Below, in pieces: positions 3,877 through 14,732 of a stretch of DNA of 36,906 nt. Source of the DNA: a virus (Duplodnaviria; Heunggongvirae; Uroviricota; Caudoviricetes); IMG/VR virus record IMGVR_UViG_638341087_000007, one strand, 5' to 3'. The stretch's first letter is position 1, and each line of letters starts with the position of its first letter. The translations under genes and the position numbers were made by a program. Below the pieces are notes generated by a model, which did no database searches, was not told the DNA's origin, and worked only from the letters and a program-made list of their open reading frames with translations.

Positions 3877-4096
3877 TCTGAATATCCCCCCAACTGATAT
3901 GAATATTACGGGCAGCAATGACAGGGTCGTTATTCCACCATGCACCTGACATGTATTTTTCAACCTGTTCGCGTCCGGCAATAACACCAATTGTGATCCC
4001 CGGCCTGACGTTCTTAAAAAAGGCGCGGGCAAAAAGGTATCTGGCAGATATTCGGCAGGCTTTTAATTTCCGGCTGTTACCTGATAGCGTAATCAT
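3866..4096 (-). CDS. hypothetical protein (76 aa)
   Basis: ATGA stop/start overlap with the upstream gene at 4093-4096 and GGAGG RBS; translational coupling supports a real gene. Confidence 0.5.
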   Translation of the reverse strand: MITLSGNSRKLKACRISARYLFARAFFKNVRPGITIGVIAGREQVEKYMSGAWWNNDPVIAARNIHISWGDIQNDC

Positions 4097-4776
4097 CTGG
4101 CCTCCAGTTTCTGTTGTTCCTGCCCACTGACCGGGCGGTGCAGTCTGACGTTCTGCCCTTCACGAAACCCCGCATAGCGCGAGGCGTCGCCATTGCGGCT
4201 TCTTCCCGGTTGACGCGCCCTGGTGGTTTGCGTTTGCGGGTATTTATGTTCCAGCCACTGTTGCATCAGTTCACGCTCATCATCGGTCAGGGCAAAGGAC
4301 TGTATTTTACTGATAACGGCCAGTACCCAGCCTTCAGCAAACTGGTCTCCACGGCTGGTACGGGTGGCGTTTTTTATTCTTTTGTTCTGTGCGCTGATAT
4401 ACTGCTGACGCGCCTTTTTCAGCTGGCGGACCAGCACTTCCCAGGTGTACGCAGCCAGTGCCGCTCGTTCCCGGTTACCGTAGAACCCCACAGACGGATG
4501 CGTGCCGGGGTGAATGATGGAGTTAACACCAAATGCCTCGCGGATGATGTTCATCAGGCCCAGCATGTAGCGCGGTGGACGGAGACTGCCTGTCGGCCAG
4601 TAATGACTGATGGTTTCATCAATATCACTCATAGCAATGTCGGAATGTGTGATGCCGTGAACATCCATCAGTTTACGGGCTCGGCGCAGTGCCAGAGCGG
4701 CCTCGTGCGGGTTGCCGGATGCGGCCAGCGCCAGCAACTTTTTCAGTTTCTCAATGTGTTTATTCTGGTCTGTCAT
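4093..4776 (-). CDS. DUF2786-like phage protein
   Basis: N-terminal IEKLKKLLALAASGNPHEAALALRRARKLM motif typical of DUF2786 proteins; start at 4776 forms an ATGA overlap with the upstream gene stop. Confidence 0.5.
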   Translation of the reverse strand: MTDQNKHIEKLKKLLALAASGNPHEAALALRRARKLMDVHGITHSDIAMSDIDETISHYWPTGSLRPPRYMLGLMNIIREAFGVNSIIHPGTHPSVGFYGNRERAALAAYTWEVLVRQLKKARQQYISAQNKRIKNATRTSRGDQFAEGWVLAVISKIQSFALTDDERELMQQWLEHKYPQTQTTRARQPGRSRNGDASRYAGFREGQNVRLHRPVSGQEQQKLEAR

Positions 4777-4988
4777 TGTTCTGTATCTCCGGTATTTTTC
4801 TGCCGTTTCCATGCCCGGACAGCGTCGGACAGCTCTTTCAGGCTGTATGCTGCTTTAAGCTTTTCCCATAACCACTGTGTTGTTATGTGCATCAGCAGGG
4901 CAGCCAGGGCTGCCCCCGCACTGAGGCATGTCGCCAGGCCAGTAAGAATCAGTATCCATGCGGTGATTTCCCTGAGTATGTCAGCCAT
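4773..4988 (-). CDS. small membrane protein (71 aa)
   Basis: ORF with one clear TM segment (ITAWILILTGLATCLSAGAALAALL). Confidence 0.4.
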   Translation of the reverse strand: MADILREITAWILILTGLATCLSAGAALAALLMHITTQWLWEKLKAAYSLKELSDAVRAWKRQKNTGDTEQ

Positions 4989-5002
4989 TGAATGCCTCCC
5001 GG

Positions 5003-5299
5003 TTACTCGTTCGTGTAAATCACGCCCAGTCGTGCAGCCAGACGTTCCAGTTTTTTCTGTTTGTGGAAGTCAATCAGCCGGTCCATCCCCTGAAGGCGCA
5101 ATTGCTCTGTCATGATTTCCACGTCTGCCAGCTCTGCCGCGAGGTCGCTTTCGCTGCCCTGTCCGTTCAGATTGCGGGCAGCACTGGCCGCCAGTTCAGC
5201 GGCCTCTTCTGTCAGTTTCAGGGCCTGTGCGTCCGGCCCGAAACGCTGCAGGGCCAGACGGTAGAGGGCGGTGCGGGTGAGTATGGTGTTCCGTGTCAT
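5003..5299 (-). CDS. MazG-like nucleotide pyrophosphohydrolase domain protein (putative)
   Basis: 98 aa with EEAAEL ... ELADVEIM ... KQKKLERL spacing that resembles the EExxE / ExxD metal-binding motifs of small MazG-like proteins. Confidence 0.45.
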   Translation of the reverse strand: MTRNTILTRTALYRLALQRFGPDAQALKLTEEAAELAASAARNLNGQGSESDLAAELADVEIMTEQLRLQGMDRLIDFHKQKKLERLAARLGVIYTNE

Positions 5300-5308
5300 G
5301 CCGCGCCC

Positions 5309-5581
5309 TCAGTGCTTCCGGTCAACAATGATGTGCAGGTCGCCTTCTGCAGTGATTTCCATCCGGTACGGCACCTCGTGCTCTGCCGCGTGGGTGAGTG
5401 TGTTCACTAGTATCTGCAGGGCGGCCTCCTTTCCGTTAGTCGCCACAATGGCCTGCGTGGCCATGCTGATTAACGCCGTCAGGGCGCACATGATATCGGT
5501 GAGGTCACGGCATTCACACTCGTTGAGATACCGTTCAACAAGGGCGCGGGTGCGCTGATGTGCTTCCTGTGGGGTAATCAT
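5309..5581 (-). CDS. hypothetical protein (90 aa)
   Basis: ORF in the early operon with tight spacing to neighbours. Confidence 0.4.
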   Translation of the reverse strand: MITPQEAHQRTRALVERYLNECECRDLTDIMCALTALISMATQAIVATNGKEAALQILVNTLTHAAEHEVPYRMEITAEGDLHIIVDRKH

Positions 5582-5772
5582 TGCGCTTCCTCCCTGTCAG
5601 GGCGGGAGAATTCCATAACGGGCACATCTGCCGAAAAATGCTGACTGCAGTACGGACAGACCAGGGTGACGCGTACTGCAGGTACGTGGTATTTACCGGA
5701 CATCACGGCGATGGCGCTGTGAAAACGCAGGGCTGTTATATCCCTCTCGCACTGAATACATTTAAATATCAT
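5578..5772 (-). CDS. hypothetical zinc-ribbon-like protein (64 aa)
   Basis: CxxC ... CxxC cysteine pairs (CIQC, CPYC); AGGAGA RBS; ATGA overlap with the downstream gene. Confidence 0.45.
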   Translation of the reverse strand: MIFKCIQCERDITALRFHSAIAVMSGKYHVPAVRVTLVCPYCSQHFSADVPVMEFSRPDREEAQ

Positions 5773-5869
5773 AATTTAATTCTCCTCTGTTTCCGGCGTG
5801 CAGAAGCCCACGGCGCTGACGCCGGAATAAAAAAGAAAATGTTTTTATTAAATAATTAACGTGGTGTGT

Positions 5870-6400
5870 TTACTGCACATCCTGCTCAAAAGGAATTATT
5901 GAAAAATCCTCAATATCACTTTTTATGGTAATGCCGGGAATATTTTTCACGGCCTCTTTTTCATTCAGAATGGCATCTTTATTTATTTCCTCTTTTACAC
6001 GAATAAAGCGCTCAAGCCCCAGACGTCTCAGTAGTTCAATAACATTATCCGCTCCACGGATACTGACTGATGGCGGACGGTTTCGCCATTGCACCTCGCC
6101 GGTGGTGAGGTTAGCGAACTTCACCTTCCCGTTGCCGGTCAGTTCATCACGGTGTGCCTCACACCATGTCTGGATACCGGACTGCAGTTCTGACATGCGT
6201 TTTTTCAGGCTCTCGGTGAGCGGGGCATAACGTGCGGTGATATCGCCAATGGCGTCATTCATTTCTGTTTCAGCCCTGACCAGTTCACGTTGTGCGTCAC
6301 CGAGCAGTCTGATGCCCTCAATGACCTCTTCGCGTGTCCCCGGTACCCAGAGTGCCGCTGCGGACTTGATACGTTTTGCCCCTTTTGTACTTTTTGCCAT
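5870..6400 (-). CDS. gam: Gam-like host-nuclease inhibitor (Ku-like DNA-end binding protein)
   Basis: 176 aa; close match along the whole length to Mu Gam as I recall it (KRIKSAAA..., ETEMNDAI..., RPPSVSIRG..., GIEDFSIIPFEQ). Confidence 0.88.
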   Translation of the reverse strand: MAKSTKGAKRIKSAAALWVPGTREEVIEGIRLLGDAQRELVRAETEMNDAIGDITARYAPLTESLKKRMSELQSGIQTWCEAHRDELTGNGKVKFANLTTGEVQWRNRPPSVSIRGADNVIELLRRLGLERFIRVKEEINKDAILNEKEAVKNIPGITIKSDIEDFSIIPFEQDVQ

Positions 6401-6427
6401 ATTTTATGATTTCTCCGGTTGTGCTGA

Positions 6428-6697
6428 TTACCACAAAGATTCCGGCCACACGACGCGACAGCCGTGCAGTTCGAAAACGCCCTGACGGAAATGTCCCCTG
6501 TGGTCATGACCGGTATACAGATAACTGGCTTTCCCCTGTTCAAGCATGCGCATGCAATGCGCACTCCGGGAAACGCGGATGACAGGTTTATTGCCCCTGA
6601 TGGTGATGCTTTGTACATCCGTGTTCGTTGCCATAAGCGCCATAATGGCTGACTGCACTTTGCTGATTTGCTGGTTGATACCTGTGATGGATTTCAT
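6428..6697 (-). CDS. hypothetical protein (89 aa), positional analogue of Mu kil
   Basis: ORF immediately downstream of B; no recognisable motif. Confidence 0.4.
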   Translation of the reverse strand: MKSITGINQQISKVQSAIMALMATNTDVQSITIRGNKPVIRVSRSAHCMRMLEQGKASYLYTGHDHRGHFRQGVFELHGCRVVWPESLW

Positions 6698-6699
6698 TA

Positions 6700-7866
6700 T
6701 TAAACCCCTTTGACAACGTCAGCGTTGACCTGTGGAACCCCGATTTCAGCGGCCAGATTCATGGCGGCTATCACCAGGTTACTGACGGCCAGCGGATACA
6801 GCAGGCTGACCCTGTTTTTACGATGACTTCCCGGATTGCTCAGGCGGGCACGTATGGCATCCACTGCGCCGGCGTCCATAATGTCCGTCAGTTGTTTACC
6901 GGCCCGTTGCAGTTTGAACGTCAGAAACTCTTCAAGGTTATTGTCGAGAGGCAGAAGTTCGACCACCTCACAGCGCTGAACGACTTCACGGACTTCCATA
7001 TTGCGTTCAGACAGTTTTGTCGCCAGTTCCGGCTGGCCAATCAGCACGATGGACAGCAGTTTTTTGAAACCGGACTCCAGCTCAAAAAAGCGTTTGAGGT
7101 GTTTCAGTGTCGGAACGGGCAGACTGTGGGCTTCCTCAATCACCAGAACGTGGCTGAACCCCGCCTGGCGGCTGTCTTTCAGGACGCGATGCAGCTGGCG
7201 AAAGCGGGCGTCCTGACTGCGTCTGATGCTTTCCAGTGGTGCGATGGTACTGATAATGGCTTCGGCAATCGCTGCTGCCTTCAGGGTTTTCCCTTTCACA
7301 TCGTTGTCTTCCATGGCGATGACGTATGGCTCGATAATAATTACCGGCGCATTCTCGCGGTTGATACGTTCAGTCAGGTCACGGCGCAGCGTGGATTTAC
7401 CCGCACCGGACTCACCGATGACAGCCATAAACCCGCCATGACGGGCTGTCTGGTACAGCGCCTCACGCACGTAGCGAATGTCCGGGGTGGTGAACACATC
7501 ATCAGAACCCTGCATGGCTTCGTCGGCGAACGGGTCACGGAAAAGACCAAACGCTTTTTTGGTTGCTGGAAATAACACCTGTTTTTTGAGTAACATATTC
7601 TCTTCCTCACTGAGGCTCGTTTTATCTGTGGTACCCGCTGTACGGGGCGTGGCCGCGCCCTGTACAGCATCAAAACTCTTCGCTGTATCAATCCCCTGAC
7701 TTTCCAGCCAGGACGCAAGACGCCGGCGCACTTCTCCGGGGCTGGTGCGGGGCCACGCGTTATGATTCACAATCTGGGCCAGCGTGGCCTCAGAAACATC
7801 GACAGCTCTCGCCACCACCGCCTGTGGAATACGGGCCTCTTTCAGTTGCTGCTTCAGTACCAGCAT
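6700..7866 (-). CDS. Mu B-like AAA+ ATPase, transposition target-DNA activator
   Basis: Walker A GESGAGKST, Walker B VLVIEEAH; N-terminal HTH; start chosen at the Met preceded by AAGGAGG (7866) rather than 7893. Confidence 0.8.
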   Translation of the reverse strand: MLVLKQQLKEARIPQAVVARAVDVSEATLAQIVNHNAWPRTSPGEVRRRLASWLESQGIDTAKSFDAVQGAATPRTAGTTDKTSLSEEENMLLKKQVLFPATKKAFGLFRDPFADEAMQGSDDVFTTPDIRYVREALYQTARHGGFMAVIGESGAGKSTLRRDLTERINRENAPVIIIEPYVIAMEDNDVKGKTLKAAAIAEAIISTIAPLESIRRSQDARFRQLHRVLKDSRQAGFSHVLVIEEAHSLPVPTLKHLKRFFELESGFKKLLSIVLIGQPELATKLSERNMEVREVVQRCEVVELLPLDNNLEEFLTFKLQRAGKQLTDIMDAGAVDAIRARLSNPGSHRKNRVSLLYPLAVSNLVIAAMNLAAEIGVPQVNADVVKGV

Positions 7867-7876
7867 GTTTCCCTCC

Positions 7877-9646
7877 TTAGTTGCCGTTAACAATGCTGAT
7901 AACGCTGCTGCGGGCCGGCGTGGTCAGCGTGGCCATGACTTCATCCAGTGCAGCTTCCGGTACGCCGTCCGGGTACTGTGCCGTTAACTGGCGGTAATGT
8001 TCCGGCGTCCAGGTAAGGCCGTTGGCGCTGAACTTCCCGCGCAGGGCTTTCGCGGCCTCCACATGAGTCATGGGACGCTGTTCAGTGCGCGGTCCGCGTA
8101 CGTCAGAGGCCTGACCTCGCTTCGGCATATAGGCCGGAAGTGTGGCGTCATCAATATGTTTATACGGGTCAAGCCGCCCGCCGAACGGCAGCGCCTTCGC
8201 CTTGCGTGCGGCAGCTGCATCTGCGGCGTTGTCTGTACCGGTGACCAGCGCTTCGGTTTCTTTTGCCGCCGTCTGTGCCGGTGTTTCCGGCAGGGCTTTG
8301 TAACTTTCGCCAAATACCGCCGCGCCTTCAGCAAAGCCAAACTCGTTCTTTCTGACCTCTTCGACCAGGAAGAACGTCTCGTGGCCGTCCTCACCGGTCA
8401 GAACCACCTGTGCCACATCGCTGCGCCACGGGTTACGGGTAATCATCAGTTTTTCACCGACCAGTACGCCCGGTACCGTTGATACGTCAAATTCAGTGCC
8501 CCGGAACGAGACACGAAGTTTTGGCGTGACTTTGCGGAGTTCTGGTGCCGCCACAGCCAGTTCACGGCATACCTCAACGGAAGGCGCTTTTTTCAGCTGC
8601 TCAGCAGTAATCTTCAGCCAGATATCCGTGCGGGTTTTACCGTGGCGGCTGTGAACAGCCGTGGCGTTAAAGTGGCTGCGCCATTTCGCGGCCAGCGCGT
8701 TGAGTTCTTCCAGACTGTGAACCGGCCGGAACTTCAGACCCGGCTCCAGCTTGCGTTCGATAATGTCACGCGCCTTTTCCACCTGTCCGGTGGCGCGGGC
8801 GTTATGCGGCTTGTGCGCTATCAGGTCGATGCCCAGTGAGCGACACATGTTTTTCGTCATACCCGCGGTGTTTGCCGAGCCGGGGTCGAGATAGAGTATT
8901 TTCGGCACGCCGTGCAGCACGTCTGCGCCGCCACGCTCCTGCATGGCGTTGATAAGCACAGAACACAGGTTCTCACCGGATTCCGCCCCCGTCACATACT
9001 CAACGTAAATCCAGCCGCTGGCATGGTCGGTAATCTCGTAACTCCACACGCGGTCACTGGCGATACGGGCAAGGTTAGCGGGCTTGTTCTTGTAGAACTT
9101 CGCGCTGTCCATCACCTGCAGCCCTTTATGTCCATTGCTCAGGTAGTAAAGCGTGCAGAGTGAGGCGTCAATCTGCCAGACATGATTGGGATGCAGACTG
9201 GCCACTTCGGTATGTGGTGCAGGGGCATCCAGTTGTTCCGGGTGCAGGCCATAGTTACGCAGGGCACGGCTGATGGCATCTTCAGACAACGGGAAAAACT
9301 CACCGGTGGTTTCATCTGTTCTGCCTGCGGTGATAAAGCCGTTAGCCCGCAGGGTTTCCACTGCATCTGCGATGGAATAGAGACGCTTACCGTTCTTGCG
9401 GGTGGCCTCACGCAGTGTGGCAGATATCAGCGCGGCTTCGTCGCGGGTCAGGGCGCTGCGCCCGGCATCGGCGCGTTTTTTGCGTTTATCAGTCACAGAG
9501 ACCTCCTTCAGCCTGCGCAGCAGAGTGGCGCGGGACATGCCAAGTTCAGCACAGGCAGCGTCGTATACTGCACCGCGTTTACCATGCCCCGCGTCACGTG
9601 CCGCGCGGGCGACATAAACCAGTCGTTCAGTCAGGGCAGCATTCAT
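7877..9646 (-). CDS. Mu A-like DDE transposase (integrase catalytic core)
   Basis: 589 aa; N-terminal HTH, retroviral-integrase-like core with candidate catalytic residues (HVWQIDAS..., YLDPGSANT...); followed by the B ATPase as in Mu. Confidence 0.8.
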   Translation of the reverse strand: MNAALTERLVYVARAARDAGHGKRGAVYDAACAELGMSRATLLRRLKEVSVTDKRKKRADAGRSALTRDEAALISATLREATRKNGKRLYSIADAVETLRANGFITAGRTDETTGEFFPLSEDAISRALRNYGLHPEQLDAPAPHTEVASLHPNHVWQIDASLCTLYYLSNGHKGLQVMDSAKFYKNKPANLARIASDRVWSYEITDHASGWIYVEYVTGAESGENLCSVLINAMQERGGADVLHGVPKILYLDPGSANTAGMTKNMCRSLGIDLIAHKPHNARATGQVEKARDIIERKLEPGLKFRPVHSLEELNALAAKWRSHFNATAVHSRHGKTRTDIWLKITAEQLKKAPSVEVCRELAVAAPELRKVTPKLRVSFRGTEFDVSTVPGVLVGEKLMITRNPWRSDVAQVVLTGEDGHETFFLVEEVRKNEFGFAEGAAVFGESYKALPETPAQTAAKETEALVTGTDNAADAAAARKAKALPFGGRLDPYKHIDDATLPAYMPKRGQASDVRGPRTEQRPMTHVEAAKALRGKFSANGLTWTPEHYRQLTAQYPDGVPEAALDEVMATLTTPARSSVISIVNGN

Positions 9647-9649
9647 TGG

Positions 9650-10561
9650 TTATGCCTCCAGCCCGTTAATCTGTGGCGTCGGCTCAGTCAGCCATGAAGG
9701 CGCGACATCGCCTGTTGGCTCGTCCGGCAGGTCAAATGTGGAGCGCAGGCTACGCGCTGTGCTTTCCAGTTGACAGACCAGGCCTGCCATGAAGTCTCTG
9801 GGGGTATCAATCATGTTTTCAGCACAATATGCGCACAGTGTCTCAAAAGCGCTGGACAGTCGAACGGCGATGGCAGATTCCGCCTCAACCGCTAATGCTG
9901 TCACTTCCGCCCGCAGCTTCTTAACCTCCTCATCAGGCTCAGGCGGCTGAATACGGGATTTCTTCTCCAGTCTGGTGGAGAGTGAGTCTATTTTTTCATT
10001 TTTGTCGGCGAGTACGCGCTGTTGTGCTGCGTTGGTTTCGCGCGCTTCGCGCAGGGCCTGACGCAATTCACGTACTGACATGCGATCAACATCGTCAAGC
10101 GTCAGTCCTGCGACTGTGCCGCCGTCGGCCAGTTCAGCAAGGTCGTCGTCATCTTCAGCAACAAGTTCAAATAATTTTGCCTTACCTAAAAGCGACAACG
10201 TTGTCGCTTTTGGCTCTAGTTTTGGTGAAAGGTATTTCAAAGATGCTTTCATCATTCGTTGTGCTGCGCGCACATGCAGACCAAGTTGTTCTTCTACAAT
10301 TCCAACAAAGTCCCCGTGTGGTTCATTTTCTTTGAGAATAATAAGTCGTTTACCTGCTTCCAGCATGGCCTCAGCGCTCTGTGCCATATAAAACCGAGCC
10401 TCATGAACTATGCGATCACGCTCATAGGGCTGACCATCGCCAAACTGCTGCATGATCTCCATGCGATGCTGTGTCATGGCGTTCAGACTGACATTGAGAT
10501 CATCCGACAGCGGTACCTCGGCGTTCAGTTCAGTGTTAATCGGTGATTTGGTGCGTCCCAT
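9650..10561 (-). CDS. hypothetical protein (303 aa), acidic with coiled-coil region
   Basis: ORF between ner and the transposase; no family recognised. Confidence 0.5.
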   Translation of the reverse strand: MGRTKSPINTELNAEVPLSDDLNVSLNAMTQHRMEIMQQFGDGQPYERDRIVHEARFYMAQSAEAMLEAGKRLIILKENEPHGDFVGIVEEQLGLHVRAAQRMMKASLKYLSPKLEPKATTLSLLGKAKLFELVAEDDDDLAELADGGTVAGLTLDDVDRMSVRELRQALREARETNAAQQRVLADKNEKIDSLSTRLEKKSRIQPPEPDEEVKKLRAEVTALAVEAESAIAVRLSSAFETLCAYCAENMIDTPRDFMAGLVCQLESTARSLRSTFDLPDEPTGDVAPSWLTEPTPQINGLEA

Positions 10562-11645: not shown

Positions 11646-11677
11646 ACCGGAAAGCATTGTGCTTTCCGGTTTTGTTC
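11646..11677 (+). terminator. rho-independent terminator downstream of the repressor gene
   Basis: Perfect 10-bp stem ACCGGAAAGC/GCTTTCCGGT, 5-nt loop, followed by TTTGTTC. Confidence 0.55.
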
Positions 11678-12440
11678 AGAAGTTGCAGATTACCAGTTCA
11701 CGGCGTGGCGTGGGTTTCCCCGCCAGACTGTAGTTGATATTCACCGTCTGTATGTTCAGTTCAGTGAACACCCGACGCATCTGCGGAATGTCATTCACCG
11801 AGATAATCATCTTTCCTCTGATGCACCGTGCCAGTTCTGCGAGTAGTGTGTAGTTCTCTTCAGGAAAATCCACACCATAGCCTTCCGTCCCCAGATAGGG
11901 CGGATCACAGTAGAACAGCGTGTGCGGACGGTCATAACGCTTAATGCACTGGTGCCAGTCCATGTGTTCTATCACCGTTCTGGAAAGCCGCAGGTGTGCC
12001 GCTGACAGTTCTTCTTCAATCCGTAGCAGGTTGAAGCGTGGCGGGGAGGTGGTGGAGGTGCCGAAGCTGTGCTCTGCCACCTTGCCCCCAAACGCCTGCT
12101 TCTGGAGGTAGTAGAACCGTGCCGCACGCTGGATATCCGTCAGTGTTTCTTCCGGGGTGATCTGCAGCCATTTGTAGATCTGCCGGCTAACCAGCGCCCA
12201 TTTGAATTGGCGGACAAATTCTTCCAGATGATGCTTTACTACCCGATACAGATTTACCAGTTCACCGTTGATATCGTTAATGACTTCGATCTTGCTGGGA
12301 GTCTTGAGAAAATAAAGTGCTGCTGCGCCGCAGAATGGCTCCACATAGCAGGTATGGAGTGGGAACTGAGGCAGAATGTGTTTGGCCAGACGACGTTTTC
12401 CCCCAATCCAGGGGACGATGGGTAAAGATTGTTCTTTCAT
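11676..12440 (-). CDS. Dam-like DNA N6-adenine methyltransferase (orphan)
   Basis: N-terminal PIVPWIGGKRR AdoMet-binding motif and DPPY catalytic motif; the track start at 12521 is a GTG, first ATG is at 12440. Confidence 0.85.
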   Translation of the reverse strand: MKEQSLPIVPWIGGKRRLAKHILPQFPLHTCYVEPFCGAAALYFLKTPSKIEVINDINGELVNLYRVVKHHLEEFVRQFKWALVSRQIYKWLQITPEETLTDIQRAARFYYLQKQAFGGKVAEHSFGTSTTSPPRFNLLRIEEELSAAHLRLSRTVIEHMDWHQCIKRYDRPHTLFYCDPPYLGTEGYGVDFPEENYTLLAELARCIRGKMIISVNDIPQMRRVFTELNIQTVNINYSLAGKPTPRRELVICNF

Positions 12441-12590
12441 TATCTGTAAGCCTTTTTCATTAGATGAAAATGCGATAGGCTTCCCTTGTTCTCGAGAACG
12501 GAAGAGCCTCGGTTGACTCACAGCTCATACCTGTAAGTTGATGACTCGCCTTGTGTTCGCTGCACAAGGTGAGTCGCTCTTTTCATGTTA
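12395..12590. repeat. direct repeat copy A (dam 5' end, leader and hairpin)
   Basis: About 190 bp, by-eye roughly 70% identical to 13029-13222; hairpin at an equivalent position. Confidence 0.6.
12543..12585 (+). terminator. hairpin plus T-tract (terminator-like RNA element) in repeat A
   Basis: 13-bp stem GACTCGCCTTGTG/CACAAGGTGAGTC (one G-U pair on the plus-strand transcript), 7-nt loop, followed by CTCTTTTC. Confidence 0.45.
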
Positions 12591-12634
12591 TTTGCATATT
12601 TCATGGGCGACAATTAAAGGGAGTTACTAATACC

Positions 12635-13015
12635 ATGGCCCCAAAAAATATTGAGCGGTTTAATGAAATAGTTGGTGAGATATTTGGGAGACTCTACGAA
12701 TCTTTCCCCGTCAAAATTGATATAAAGGCAGTTGATATCGTTAGACAGAATGAACTTACTTTTTTTCTTGATACCGTAGACTGGCTTAAAAACAGTGGCT
12801 ATTTAATCGGGGCGCGTAGTTCTGGGGGGATCCACAACGCAGTGCTAACGGCTAAAGGTCTTGAGGTATTAAACGCTACGCCTGGAAGTCTGGAAAAACC
12901 GTTGGGGGCCAGAATATCTGACTCTATAAAAATTGAAGGGAAAGAAGCGTTGCGATCACTGGTTAGCCAGACTCTAGGAATAGGTCTGCAATATATGTCT
13001 CGTGGTCTTATGTAA
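12635..13015 (+). CDS. small protein X1 (126 aa), predicted winged-helix-like; paralogue of 13479..13883
   Basis: Shares with X2 the pattern G-x-IF-x-RL ... F-x-DT-x-x-WL ... VLT-x-K-x-L-x-x-LNA-x-P; AT-rich codon usage compared with flanking phage genes. Confidence 0.6.
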   Translation: MAPKNIERFNEIVGEIFGRLYESFPVKIDIKAVDIVRQNELTFFLDTVDWLKNSGYLIGARSSGGIHNAVLTAKGLEVLNATPGSLEKPLGARISDSIKIEGKEALRSLVSQTLGIGLQYMSRGLM

Positions 13016-13075
13016 TATCGCAAGGCAGCGTTTGCCACCAATCCATGGAACGATGGGTAATGTCTGCGTTTTCAT
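12974..13075 (-). pseudogene. dam 5' fragment (second, truncated copy)
   Basis: Minus-strand translation MKTQTLPIVPWIGGKRCL... matches Dam N-terminus MKEQSLPIVPWIGGKRRL...; frame ends after 33 codons and overlaps the X1 3' end. Confidence 0.6.
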
Positions 13076-13222
13076 AATCTGTAAACATTTTACAATTATT
13101 AAAAATATGGCAGGCTAGTCTGGTCTCACGAGACTGACTGAACCTCGGTCGGCTCACAGTGCATTCCTGTGGGACGATGGCCAGCCCGGCTTTCGGGTGC
13201 CGGGCTGGTCGTTCTTTCATGA
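13029..13222. repeat. direct repeat copy B (dam' 5' end, leader and hairpin)
   Basis: Alignable with 12395-12590. Confidence 0.6.
13181..13221 (+). terminator. hairpin plus T-tract (terminator-like) in repeat B
   Basis: 10-bp stem CCAGCCCGGC/GCCGGGCTGG, 8-nt loop, followed by TCGTTCTTTC; same relative position as the hairpin in repeat A but different stem sequence. Confidence 0.5.
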
Positions 13223-13264
13223 TGCGGCAGGGATAGTGGGATTTCTGTTAATGCGGTTTAGGGA

Positions 13265-13480
13265 TTATCCGGGGTGATTTTCTGACCTTATCTGGTCCAG
13301 GGCGTAAGTGAGCCCTTCTGCAAAAACAGAAGTATCAAACTGCTTTTGTATTTCCTGAAAATGAACAGTGGCACGACAGATACTCAGTTCTCCGCGATGT
13401 AACCGGATAATATCTTCCAGAACATTGTTCACTGCTTCAGCACGGCGCTGATGTTCTGTTAACGTTAATCGGGGATTCAT
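13265..13480 (-). CDS. hypothetical small protein (71 aa), uncertain
   Basis: Strong RBS (AAGGAG, 6 nt spacing) but its start codon overlaps the X2 start codon divergently by 2 nt. Confidence 0.3.
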   Translation of the reverse strand: MNPRLTLTEHQRRAEAVNNVLEDIIRLHRGELSICRATVHFQEIQKQFDTSVFAEGLTYALDQIRSENHPG

Positions 13481-13883
13481 GATGCACTCCTTAAATGATG
13501 ATTTTTATGTACTCACCGGCAAAATATTCTGCCGATTACTGAACACGCATCCGGTACCTCAGGTTTTGATTTATTCTGGTTTTTTCGATATCCCGGACCA
13601 GGTTGATCACGACCAGAAAAAGTGCCGGTATTTTATTGATACGCTGATATGGCTTCGGGATAACAGCTATATTCGTTACTCTCAGTTGCTGGCTGTGGGA
13701 GCGGCTGATGTCGTCCTCACGGAAAAAACGCTCTGTCTGCTCAATGCCATGCCGACCTTTCTGCAGCCCCGGCCCGTGCCATTTAAAGAGTCGCTTCTGG
13801 ATGCAGTAAAAACCGGTGAAAATGCAGTCATCGCTGAATGCGTATCCCGGATTATGCGTTACGTGTTTAATGAACGTAAGTGA
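13479..13883 (+). CDS. small protein X2 (134 aa), paralogue of X1
   Basis: Same conserved pattern as X1; GGGGA RBS; 3' end overlaps the convergent NTPase gene by 25 nt. Confidence 0.6.
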   Translation: MMHSLNDDFYVLTGKIFCRLLNTHPVPQVLIYSGFFDIPDQVDHDQKKCRYFIDTLIWLRDNSYIRYSQLLAVGAADVVLTEKTLCLLNAMPTFLQPRPVPFKESLLDAVKTGENAVIAECVSRIMRYVFNERK

Positions 13884-14602
13884 GGTTTATCCGTTGTCTG
13901 CATAATCCCGATAGCCAGTGCGAGGGGAAGCAATTCCGGGGAAACTTTTTCAAACAGCGATTCCCATTCTCCTCTCGCCATCACTCTGTCCAGCCCGCCC
14001 TCCAGCTGCATTTCAGCAATCTTCCTGATTTCCCGGAACAACGCCGCTTTGATCTCTTCATGCTCAGCTTTATTTTCCGGTGTCAGAATGTATTCGTCGA
14101 AGAACCGGGGAGGCTGGTTAACGGGGATTGTGTTCACCGGGATGTGTTCCTGCTTCCCGTACTTCGGGGCCGAAAAACATTCTGTTGGCTGACCAGCGAG
14201 TTTACGTAACTCCTTCATGAGCAGCTCCTGATCGTAAACTGTCATCAGTGCCGCAATGGTGGCATGCAGTGCATCGGGCAGTATCCAGGGTTGCCGGCCC
14301 GTGGGGCATATAACATCCAGCAGCTCATTCGTCCGACAGATACGCTCCTCGCCGTATGACAACAGGCCCTGTCCCGTGTATTCCTCCAGCCTGATCACTG
14401 TGCCAGCCCGTGGCTTCTGCCAGGTCGTCAGATCATCGCCACTCATACGGCGCTCATTCTCCACGTCAGCAGCATCGACAATGACGCTGTTTCCGAGTTC
14501 CTGTTTCACCATCTCTTCTATCCGCGCCAGTACGTAACTTTTACCGCTGCCCACAGGACCGGACACAGTGACAGTGATGACCGGATTCAGTGTGTGCGTC
14601 AT
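13859..14602 (-). CDS. P-loop NTPase, small-kinase-like N-terminal domain with unknown C-terminal domain
   Basis: Walker A VSGPVGSGKSYV near the N-terminus, candidate Walker B VIVDAAD; no further family recognised. Confidence 0.6.
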   Translation of the reverse strand: MTHTLNPVITVTVSGPVGSGKSYVLARIEEMVKQELGNSVIVDAADVENERRMSGDDLTTWQKPRAGTVIRLEEYTGQGLLSYGEERICRTNELLDVICPTGRQPWILPDALHATIAALMTVYDQELLMKELRKLAGQPTECFSAPKYGKQEHIPVNTIPVNQPPRFFDEYILTPENKAEHEEIKAALFREIRKIAEMQLEGGLDRVMARGEWESLFEKVSPELLPLALAIGIMQTTDKPHLRSLNT

Positions 14603-14662
14603 ATCGTATTCTCCTCTGTGAATAATTCATCGTTTATCCTGCACACCCCGTATCCCCGGCTC

Positions 14663-14683
14663 TCTTAACGCGCTTTAAAATCC
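14663..14683 (+). promoter_or_regulatory. candidate late promoter element upstream of the lysis operon
   Basis: TCTTAACGCGCTTTAAAATCC, one of three similar elements upstream of late operons. Confidence 0.4.
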
Positions 14684-14732
14684 TTCGCGCCCTGTATTTG
14701 TGATGCTGTCTCCACCAGACAAGGAGACACAC

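What the first reader, a model, noticed from the sequence alone, without database searches (positions are those of the whole stretch)
11676..14602. Mosaic accessory locus between the immunity switch and the lysis operon: candidate uncharacterised system
Five or six genes sit between the repressor terminator and the late promoter and have no counterpart in the canonical Mu layout as I recall it. They are a Dam-like methyltransferase, two paralogous small winged-helix-like proteins facing away from it, a truncated second dam 5' end, a possible 71-aa ORF, and a P-loop kinase-like NTPase transcribed divergently from the lysis operon. The locus has its own repeats and hairpins and the X1 region is more AT-rich than the surrounding phage genes, which suggests horizontally acquired cargo. 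A methyltransferase plus NTPase plus small DNA-binding proteins is the kind of gene set seen in defence, anti-defence or DNA-modification modules, but I cannot assign it to any named system from sequence alone.
Basis: partly seen in the sequence, partly recalled or inferred. Interest (0 to 1): 0.8.

Follow-up and report, generated by a model that had tools for sequence, protein, structure and literature searches.

The report
Variable accessory-gene slot of a BcepMu-like prophage
This stretch is the fast-changing accessory-gene slot of a BcepMu-type transposable prophage found in about one in ten E. coli genomes: it holds a stand-alone DNA adenine methylase with a conserved structured leader plus three uncharacterised, independently shuffling phage gene families, not one coherent defence system.

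Summary

The window is an E. coli Bcepmuvirus prophage, not Mu proper. The interval is a variable cargo slot, 1.3-5.2 kb long in 47 related prophages. The "one system" reading is not supported, because the genes assort independently:
- Dam occurs alone in many genera.
- X2 is cleanly deleted in natural variants.
- X-plus-small-ORF pairs also sit in the gpA-gpQ hotspot of P2-like prophages.
- The "NTPase" is a 75-aa P-loop head fused to shuffled cassettes.

No PADLOC or Pfam system matches anything except the methylase. X2 has a winged-helix fold, but the family is acidic, so DNA binding is unproven.

The window's arrangement (two X genes plus the dam scar) is a rare recombinant, found in 6 of 5426 complete E. 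coli genomes.

New here is a ~150-165-nt conserved, covarying leader upstream of dam. Its first hairpin is an opposite-strand terminator; the rest could mask the dam ribosome-binding site.

Function is unassigned beyond the DNA methylase. Interest is moderate.

The parts
11646..11670 (+). Intrinsic terminator at the end of the repressor gene, abutting the dam stop codon
   Evidence: Terminator scan: 11-bp stem followed by TTTTGTT.
11676..12440 (-). Orphan Dam-family (D12 class) N6-adenine DNA methyltransferase, 254 aa, with a DPPY motif
   Evidence: PF02086 E=1.5e-27; phrog_56 E=6e-98; PADLOC MTase_II E=1e-112; RefSeq start. Nearest solved structures are DpnM and E. coli Dam. pN/pS is 0.09. 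No nuclease partner lies in the slot.
12441..12584 (-). Conserved structured dam leader (live copy). It comprises a long-range helix A:B, hairpin H1, the invariant CACAG/CUGUG hairpin H2 (12519-12535), a covarying palindrome, and helix C:D (12477-12481 with 12449-12453) that would pair with the Shine-Dalgarno region
   Evidence: Alignment A10 of 36 distinct loci: 89% of cells paired against 31-46% when slid, and 14 pairs with changes on both sides. A Dam start follows 70-86 nt downstream in 81 of 87 IMG/VR contigs carrying the motif. No Rfam match.
12542..12576 (+). Hairpin H1 of the leader, acting as an intrinsic terminator on the + strand (followed by CTCTTTTCAT)
   Evidence: Terminator scan. 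On the dam-sense strand there are 65 A.C/C.A cells against 16 G.U cells, so the helix is maintained on the opposite strand.
12635..13015 (+). X1, a 126-aa member of the X family (phrog_2266), lying between two copies of the dam leader
   Evidence: phrog_2266 E=2e-35; paralog of X2. Present in only 6 of 5426 complete E. coli genomes. Homologs of 57% identity lie next to dam in Photorhabdus.
13020..13264 (-). Recombination scar: the first ~55 nt of a second dam allele (13020-13074) plus its complete leader, including a second H1 terminator copy at about 13178-13210
   Evidence: Alignment to the intact ABU 83972-type dam 5' region; direct repeat D1; BLAST junction at 13020.
13265..13480 (-). orf71, a small conserved protein whose start codon overlaps the X2 start by 2 nt, head to head
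   Evidence: phrog_4490 E=5e-50. A Serratia 73-aa homolog has the same arrangement. Analogous 63-64-aa partners occur in P2-like phages. pN/pS is 0.50.
13479..13883 (+). X2, a 134-aa winged-helix-fold protein encoded antisense inside the leftward gene row; its 3' end overlaps the next gene by 25 nt
13859..14602 (-). Mosaic protein, 247 aa: a conserved ~75-aa N-terminal P-loop head (GPVGSGKS) followed by shuffled C-terminal cassettes. It is the first gene divergent from the holin
   Evidence: phrog_3787. The exhaustive search gave 54 hits, and distant ones share only residues 1-75. Cassette map. Same position in Salmonella, Serratia and other Bcepmuvirus prophages. AF2 pLDDT was 44, unusable.
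14603..14732 (.). Divergent intergenic region between the mosaic gene and the holin; presumed to hold the leftward promoter and the late/lysis promoter
   Evidence: Gene map. No consensus sigma-70 site was found, so promoter positions are inferred only.

Best explanation
The interval is the hypervariable accessory slot of an E. coli Bcepmuvirus (BcepMu-like transposable) prophage. It lies between the immunity repressor and the lysis/late operon. It is a patchwork of at least three independently mobile modules, not one multi-gene machine.

(1) Orphan Dam-family methylase with a conserved ~150-165-nt leader.
- Shown: the fold family, the catalytic motif, strong purifying selection, and the covarying leader.
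- Inferred: the leader's first hairpin is a + strand terminator. It would stop read-through from the repressor side before it reaches the lysis genes.
- Inferred: the remaining helices gate dam translation by pairing with the ribosome-binding site.
- Inferred: Dam is made during lytic growth and modifies phage DNA. It would do so either to protect that DNA from restriction or to time phage functions.

(2) X-family small acidic winged-helix proteins (X1, X2).
- Each is encoded antisense within a leftward gene row.
- X2 is locked head to head with the small orf71.
- The same X-plus-small-ORF unit sits in the gpA-gpQ hotspot of P2-like prophages.
- Inferred: they are regulators or protein-binding modulators. 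Their expression would be mutually exclusive with the row they are embedded in, through transcriptional interference.

(3) A polymorphic protein with a constant 75-aa P-loop head and exchangeable tail cassettes.
- It always occupies the first position divergent from the holin.
- Inferred: it is a phage conflict or accessory effector whose tails are under diversifying exchange.

The window's own layout arose when a second dam cassette carrying X1 was joined to the common layout. Most of the older dam was lost, leaving a 55-nt dam stub and a duplicated leader.
For: - Identity of the element: the sequence is 100% identical in E. coli M-17 and other strains. It is Bcepmuvirus by the PhiKM record, and BcepMu itself has different genes in the slot.
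- Variable slot: the Ner/IclR-to-holin distance is 1.3-5.2 kb in 47 loci, with about 20 different recurring gene clusters.
- Independent assortment. Dam is present in 31 of 47 loci, without orf71, X2 or a full-length relative of the 247-aa protein outside E. coli. The P-loop family occurs with Dam only in Salmonella and Serratia (L026, L018). A clean X2 deletion leaves its neighbours intact. The L125 type lacks window 13277-14136. The Serratia layout has only the tail cassette as an 89-aa gene.
- X pairs in P2-like prophages lie between gpA and the portal. Rousset et al. 2022 (PMC9122126) define that region as a hotspot of genetic diversity.
- Mosaic structure of the P-loop protein.
- Leader structure and its linkage to dam.
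- In ST131 strain EC958, prophage Phi2 carries this locus. A Phi2 orphan D12 methylase, M.EcoMIV, was transcribed significantly less than host dam in the lysogen and gave no assignable motif (PMC4659465). This fits lytic-phase, tightly controlled expression.
- Purifying selection acts on all the genes.
Against: - No transcript, promoter or protein activity was measured. No consensus promoters were found for the leftward row, X1 or X2.
- orf71, X2 and the 247-aa protein co-occur in about 480-490 E. coli genomes. Some functional coupling among these three therefore cannot be excluded, although that co-occurrence is largely clonal inheritance of one prophage type.
- The mapping of M.EcoMIV to this gene rests on its being the Phi2 D12 methylase, not on a sequence check.
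- The SD-masking helix C:D is nearly invariant, so covariation cannot test it.
- The terminator role of H1 is inferred from strand-specific G.U patterns and a T-tract only.
Confidence: 0.6

Rival explanations
1. One reading: the five or six genes act together as one uncharacterised defence, anti-defence or DNA-modification system (methylase + NTPase + DNA-binding proteins).
For: - The genes are tightly packed with overlapping ends.
- The row of the mosaic gene, X2, orf71 and dam is conserved as a block in about 480-490 E. coli genomes.
- The X family also occurs in a hotspot of P2-like prophages that is rich in defence systems.
Against: - The components assort independently across genera and even within E. 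coli.
- No PADLOC model other than generic methylase models reaches significance: 0 families for X1, orf71 and X2 at E<=1, and only P-loop-level noise (best E=0.015) for the 247-aa protein.
- No nuclease or other effector domain is present.
- The P-loop head lacks a conserved Walker B.
- The related dam M.EcoMIV was transcribed significantly less than host dam in lysogens. That argues against a lysogen-expressed defence role for that gene.
Confidence: 0.12
2. Counter-defence cluster. Dam protects phage DNA from restriction. The acidic X proteins and the polymorphic P-loop-head protein are inhibitors or sponges aimed at host immune systems, made early after infection or induction.
For: - The X family is acidic (median pI 4.9) and most P-loop-head family members have pI 5-6.
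- Cassette shuffling and rapid turnover are typical of conflict genes.
- In every genomic context examined here, the P-loop-head family lies in prophage or phage-like DNA. Distant members sit in gene arrays of large phage-like contigs, beside a gene with a faint Acb2/Tad1-hairpin hit.
- Low dam transcription in lysogens fits lytic-phase expression.
- A P-loop could bind nucleotide signals.
Against: - There is no similarity to any known anti-defence protein.
- BFVD fold search found nothing significant for X2.
- The Acb2/Tad1 hit is faint and lies in a neighbouring gene, not in the family itself.
- The timing of expression is unknown.
Confidence: 0.2
3. X2 and orf71 form a toxin-antitoxin or addiction pair that stabilises the cassette.
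For: - It is a two-gene unit of small proteins, conserved as a pair in two unrelated phage families.
- A natural deletion removes X2 but keeps orf71. That would be tolerated if X2 were the toxin.
Against: - The genes are divergent with overlapping start codons, not a co-directional operon.
- X1 exists without any small partner.
- No toxin or antitoxin family is hit in Pfam or PADLOC.
- The small partners are only ~19% identical between the P2-like and Bcepmuvirus versions.
Confidence: 0.06

Closest known systems
Accessory ('moron') and diversity hotspots of temperate phages, e.g. the gpA-gpQ hotspot of P2-like prophages (Rousset et al. 2022, PMC9122126)
   Same: - It is a fixed position flanked by conserved core genes, filled with different small gene sets in related prophages.
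- X-plus-small-ORF units occur in both hotspots.
   Different: - The phage family is different (transposable Bcepmuvirus), and the slot lies between immunity and lysis rather than next to cos.
- None of the cargo seen here matches a known defence system.
- One occupant, dam with its leader, is semi-conserved rather than variable.
Phage orphan Dam methyltransferases (T4 Dam, P1 Dam; E. coli Dam, DpnM)
   Same: - D12-class fold family.
- DPPY catalytic motif.
- No cognate nuclease.
   Different: - Only distantly related to E. coli Dam (NF008152 scores 64 bits against a cutoff of 441).
- The recognition site is unknown.
- The ST131 homolog M.EcoMIV gave no assignable motif and low lysogen transcription.
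Mu com-mom module (a small regulator upstream of a DNA-modification gene whose translation start is masked by an RNA stem)
   Same: - A small ORF lies directly upstream of a DNA-modification gene in the common E. coli layout.
- A structured leader could mask the ribosome-binding site.
   Different: - Dam is unrelated to Mom.
- orf71 has one cysteine and no zinc-finger pattern.
- The leader is conserved in many loci that lack orf71 altogether, so orf71 cannot be its obligatory partner.
ABC-type and other P-loop NTPases
   Same: A strand-Walker A-helix-strand element whose sequence resembles the start of ABC nucleotide-binding domains.
   Different: - The domain stops after ~75 residues.
- There is no Q-loop, signature motif, conserved Walker B or H-loop.
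- All Pfam hits are below threshold.
- Walker A is GKN in some members.

Membership tests
D12-class N6-adenine DNA methyltransferase (Dam family) | Pfam PF02086 match above the gathering score | tested here: met
   97.3 bits against a cutoff of 22, covering profile positions 1-248 of 253.
D12-class N6-adenine DNA methyltransferase (Dam family) | Catalytic DPPY motif and an FxGxG-like SAM-binding motif | tested here: met
   The translation contains ...FYCDPPYLG... and ...EPFCGAAALYF....
D12-class N6-adenine DNA methyltransferase (Dam family) | Orthology to E. coli Dam, or GATC specificity | tested here: not met
   NF008152 scores 64.5 bits against a cutoff of 441. TIGR00571 scores 112.3 against 114.85. 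Specificity itself is not testable here, and the literature on the ST131 homolog found no motif.
Restriction-modification system | A cognate endonuclease gene adjacent to the methylase | tested here: not met
   No nuclease family is hit by any neighbouring protein in Pfam, NCBIfam or PADLOC.
P-loop NTPase | Walker A motif GxxxxGK[ST] | tested here: met
   GPVGSGKS at residues 15-22. G20 and K21 are invariant, but S22 is replaced by N in several members.
P-loop NTPase | Conserved Walker B acidic residue and a complete alpha/beta core | tested here: not met
   The candidate IVDA aspartate is not conserved in the distant group. Conservation ends at about residue 75. No Pfam P-loop family is above threshold. 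The structure model was too poor to judge the core (pLDDT 44).
Winged-helix DNA-binding regulators | Winged-helix fold | tested here: met
Winged-helix DNA-binding regulators | DNA binding (basic recognition surface; operator) | tested here: inconclusive
   The family median pI is 4.9, and only three conserved basic positions exist (K83, K105, K111 in X2 numbering). No operator was identified.
Pfam DUF2513 (label given by UniRef to some X-family members) | Match to the Pfam model | tested here: not met
   There was no Pfam hit for X1, X2, P0012 or the P2-like homologs, even at E<=10.
Known anti-phage defence systems (PADLOC v2) | Significant match of the non-methylase proteins to any system component | tested here: not met
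   X1, orf71 and X2 hit 0 families. The mosaic protein gave only P-loop-level noise (best E=0.015). Other slot cargo was also negative apart from one weak KwaA hit.
Type II toxin-antitoxin pair (X2/orf71) | Co-directional two-gene operon in which both partners are required | tested here: not met
   The genes are divergent with overlapping starts. X2 is deleted in nature with orf71 kept. X1 has no partner.
Mu com-mom type control | Zinc-finger Com-like activator and a Mom-family modification enzyme | tested here: not met
   orf71 has a single Cys and no Pfam hit. The enzyme is Dam family, not Mom. Only the idea of a masked translation start is shared.

The most novel reading that the evidence does not exclude
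Two things could be new. First, the polymorphic P-loop-head proteins and the antisense-embedded acidic winged-helix X proteins may be new families of phage conflict effectors (counter-defence or exclusion factors). They would be carried by about 10% of E. coli genomes, including ST131. Second, the dam leader may be a previously undescribed dual-purpose element: an opposite-strand insulator terminator fused to an RNA switch that gates methylase translation.
Probability: 0.3. Interest if true: 0.7.

Novelty: new member of a known kind. Interest (0 to 1): 0.45.

Why it matters
- Prevalence: the prophage type is common. DNA similar to the locus is in 636 of 5426 complete E. coli genomes, including ST131 EC958 and ABU 83972, yet four of its five slot genes have no assigned function in RefSeq, PHROGs or Pfam.
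- Focus for experiments: the slot is a patchwork, not a system. That points experiments at single modules.
- Testable objects: the work defines a constant-head, variable-tail protein family tied to one genomic position. It also defines an X-plus-small-ORF unit shared by two unrelated phage families.
- The dam leader: its conserved structure gives a concrete hypothesis for why the ST131 prophage methylase appears silent in lysogens.

Tried and rejected
- AlphaFold of the 247-aa protein with the only alignment allowed (11 near-identical E. coli sequences) gave pLDDT 44, so no fold search was run on it.
- The afdb50 fold library was unavailable. BFVD gave nothing significant for X2.
- Sequence or profile searches against PDB gave nothing useful for the tail of the mosaic protein (best E=1.7) or for the X-family profile (best E=0.42, weak winged-helix hits).
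- Rfam found no family for the hairpins or leader.
- An antisense-RNA reading of the leader was considered. The TTTTCA/TACAAT promoter seen in the remnant copy has a variable -10 position in other alleles (my reading of A10). It was therefore dropped in favour of a read-through terminator.
- A leader-peptide reading was rejected, because the ATG at the leader's start is absent in most genera.
- Literature searches by RefSeq protein accession found no paper.
- A first guess at the EC958 coordinates missed the prophage; it was found on a later try.
- GATC avoidance in the early region was checked in relatives and is not general.
Full report
**What the window is.**
- The 4.2 kb around the finding is 100% identical to chromosomal DNA of E. 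coli M-17 and three other strains. Similar DNA is present in 636 of 5426 complete E. coli genomes.
- The closest phage record, Escherichia phage PhiKM, is classified as Bcepmuvirus.
- Gene order is: DDE transposase, DUF3102-like, IclR-type and Ner-like regulators on the minus strand, then an HTH repressor on the plus strand, then the slot. After the slot come a Holin_2-3 holin, an SLT endolysin and Mu-type head genes on the plus strand.
- This is the BcepMu layout, not that of Mu. In BcepMu itself the same slot holds gp18-gp20, all on the plus strand, with no dam.

**Check of the observation.**
- Dam is 11676-12440 (-) by the RefSeq start. It scores PF02086 E=1.5e-27, phrog_56 E=6e-98 and PADLOC MTase_II E=1e-112, and it carries DPPY.
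- X1 (12635-13015, +) and X2 (13479-13883, +) both hit phrog_2266. They are 28% identical with E=4e-12.
- Positions 13020-13264 are a second copy of the dam 5' end (about 55 nt) plus its upstream region. This copy is almost identical to the intact dam 5' region of the common E. coli type.
- orf71 (13265-13480, -) matches phrog_4490 end to end.
- The 247-aa protein (13859-14602, -) carries GPVGSGKS and is divergent from the holin.
- GC falls to 0.43 over X1.

**The slot is variable.**
- A genome-wide scan with the endolysin returned 79 loci from many Enterobacterales and some beta- and gammaproteobacteria.
- In 47 loci with both flanks, the distance from the Ner/IclR regulator to the holin ranges from 1.3 to 5.2 kb. 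The content falls into about 20 recurring ORF clusters.
- Dam is the commonest occupant, in 31 of the 47 loci.
- Other cargo includes DUF2441 proteins, an NdpA-like NA37 protein paired with a 395-aa protein, and many proteins with no Pfam or PADLOC hit.
- The "variable cargo hotspot" part of the interpretation therefore holds. It is not a hotspot of recognised defence systems.

**The genes do not behave as one system.**
- Outside E. coli, none of the 79 loci has orf71, X2 or a full-length relative of the 247-aa protein.
- Within E. coli there are several layouts:
  - the common type B: mosaic gene, X2, orf71, dam;
  - type A, this window, with X1 and the dam scar added;
  - type C, with a clean 325-bp deletion inside X2 while the neighbours stay intact;
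  - a type identical to the window minus 13277-14136, which leaves a 158-aa P-loop protein, X1 and dam;
  - types with a truncated P-loop gene and no dam.
- Salmonella diarizonae and Serratia prophages have a P-loop-head gene directly followed by dam (L026, L018).
- Another Serratia type has an 89-aa gene, an X homolog (53% identical to X2), a 73-aa orf71 homolog and dam.
- The X1-containing arrangement is rare, in 6 of 5426 complete genomes. X2 is in about 492 and the P-loop gene in 483-583.

**The X family.**
- A profile search gave 125 relatives in Enterobacterales, Pseudomonas and Vibrio.
- There is no Pfam hit, including DUF2513.
- The family is acidic (median pI 4.9) and its conserved residues are mostly hydrophobic. 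DNA binding is therefore not established.
- The context is striking: X genes are encoded antisense inside a row of oppositely oriented genes.
- In P2-like phages and prophages (Midge, FSL SP-004, ST147-VIM1phi7.1 and very many Salmonella, E. coli and Klebsiella prophages), a 143-145-aa X gene sits head to head with a 63-64-aa ORF. The start codons overlap by 2 nt, exactly as for X2 and orf71. The pair lies between gpA/DinI and the portal.
- That interval is the hotspot of genetic diversity described by Rousset et al. 2022 (PMC9122126).
- The small partners are only ~19% identical to orf71, so the correspondence is mainly positional.

**The "NTPase".**
- Word-indexed search found only E. coli relatives.
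- An exhaustive phmmer search over 1.84 billion representatives found 54 hits. All distant ones (32-59% identity) match only residues 1-75.
- This head is strand-Walker A-helix-strand plus a W-x-x-P motif and one more strand.
- It resembles the first ~45 residues of ABC nucleotide-binding domains and designed P-loop prototypes, and nothing more.
- Walker A is GKN in some members, and no Walker B-like acidic residue is conserved.
- The remainder is a set of cassettes that recur in different orders, or alone:
  - window residues 106-135 match the extreme C-terminus of another member at 63% identity;
  - residues 182-233 match the stand-alone 89-aa Serratia protein at 46%;
  - the 107-aa stand-alone gene next to the holin in Klebsiella, Erwinia and other loci matches the tail of three further members.
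- Every member whose context could be read in a Bcepmuvirus prophage is the first gene divergent from the holin.
- A distant subgroup lies in arrays of small unknown genes on large phage-like contigs.
- AlphaFold failed on the shallow alignment (pLDDT 44).

**The hairpins: a conserved dam leader.**
- The ~165 nt upstream of the dam start are conserved in 42 distinct loci from more than ten genera.
- On a 36-sequence alignment, a structure with seven helices has 89% of cells paired, against 31-46% when partners are slid. It has 14 pairs with changes on both sides and a covariation score of 0.207 against 0.02-0.06.
- The big hairpin H1 shows 65 A.C/C.A cells against 16 G.U cells on the dam-sense strand. 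It is therefore maintained on the opposite (window +) strand.
- On that strand H1 is followed by a T-run and is picked up as a terminator (12542-12576).
- In many relatives dam abuts the holin. There, this terminator lies between the plus-strand repressor side and the plus-strand lysis genes. My inference is that it insulates the lysis genes from read-through.
- The downstream helices carry G.U pairs only on the dam-sense strand.
- Helix C:D would pair AGCCU with the AGGCU of the ribosome-binding region. Segment B can pair with A or with C. This suggests, but does not prove, an alternative-structure control of translation.
- The motif CACAG-N7-CTGTGAGYCRACC occurs in 87 IMG/VR contigs. In 81 of them a Dam start follows 70-86 nt downstream.
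- Rfam has no match.
- The window has two copies of this leader, one live and one in the scar, flanking X1.

**Link to published data.**
- Prophage Phi2 of ST131 strain EC958 carries the type B locus.
- Forde et al. 2015 (PMC4659465) describe a Phi2-borne orphan D12 methylase, M.EcoMIV. In mid-log LB it was transcribed significantly less than host dam, and no methylation motif could be assigned to it. No recognition site is known for any homolog above 65% identity.
- I take M.EcoMIV to be this gene because it is the D12 methylase annotated in Phi2. I did not verify the locus-tag mapping by sequence.
- This fits a tightly controlled, probably lytic-phase methylase. It also means GATC specificity is only a guess from family membership.

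**Selection.** Among E. coli alleles, pN/pS is 0.09 for dam, 0.24 for the mosaic gene, 0.32 for X2 and 0.50 for orf71. All are consistent with coding genes, the last only weakly.

**Verdict.**
- The best-supported reading is a patchwork of independent modules in a fixed phage slot, not a single new system.
- Beyond the methylase, function remains unassigned. My leaning is towards lytic-phase accessory or conflict functions, but that is inference.
- The most useful new objects are the constant-head, variable-tail protein family, the antisense-embedded X-plus-small-ORF unit shared with P2-like phages, and the conserved dam leader.

Noticed in passing
window 12441-12584 (live copy) and 13075-13235 (scar copy); alignment A10: A ~150-165-nt conserved, covarying leader lies upstream of dam in 42 distinct Bcepmuvirus-type loci. 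It has no Rfam match. Its first hairpin works on the opposite strand as a terminator, and the other helices may mask the dam ribosome-binding site. The core motif is followed by a Dam start within 70-86 nt in 81 of 87 IMG/VR contigs.
   Followed up: yes
window 3995-10084, and the whole window: GATC is under-represented: 101 sites against 141-173 expected. The early/transposition region has a 6.1-kb stretch with no GATC at all. Relatives from other genera do not show an early-region-specific depletion, though several close relatives are GATC-poor overall.
   Followed up: partly
L088 and L091 (7745-7800); L125 (5381-5640); proteins P0024, P0026, P0028, P0030: Natural decay or rearrangement variants exist. 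They include a clean 325-bp deletion inside X2 and a deletion equivalent to window 13277-14136. Variants of the P-loop protein of 182, 158 and 141 aa lack internal or C-terminal parts.
   Followed up: partly
L132 6001-7681 and L134 4150-6775: Distant P-loop-head homologs (35-40% identity over the head) lie in arrays of small unknown genes on large phage-like contigs. They sit next to DUF7941 genes and to one 340-aa gene with a faint Acb2/Tad1-hairpin Pfam hit.
   Followed up: no
L116 4801-9013 (Pseudomonas tohonis): A 155-aa X-family member sits between a 328-aa and a 767-aa protein, neither with a Pfam hit. They form a small island beside an AraC regulator and a Bro-N-like gene. This may be a different X-associated module.
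   Followed up: no
L015 6430-8645, L030 7225-9416, L034 6321-8512: In Mixta, Pectobacterium and Brenneria prophages the same slot carries an NdpA-like nucleoid-associated protein (PF04245, E=9e-86). It is followed by a 395-aa protein with only a weak KwaA-like hit.
   Followed up: partly
L226 6272-8552 (EC958 chromosome 1030271-1032551): ST131 reference strain EC958 carries the common form of this locus in prophage Phi2. Its methylase is most likely the published M.EcoMIV, which was poorly transcribed in the lysogen and has no assigned motif.
   Followed up: partly
L004 (OM835952.1, 'Klebsiella phage KP12 clone KP12_2'): This record is filed under Vequintavirinae, but the 35-kb sequence has the Bcepmuvirus gene order (transposase, IclR-type regulator, dam, holin, SLT, Mu-type terminase). 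It is probably a co-purified induced prophage.
   Followed up: no
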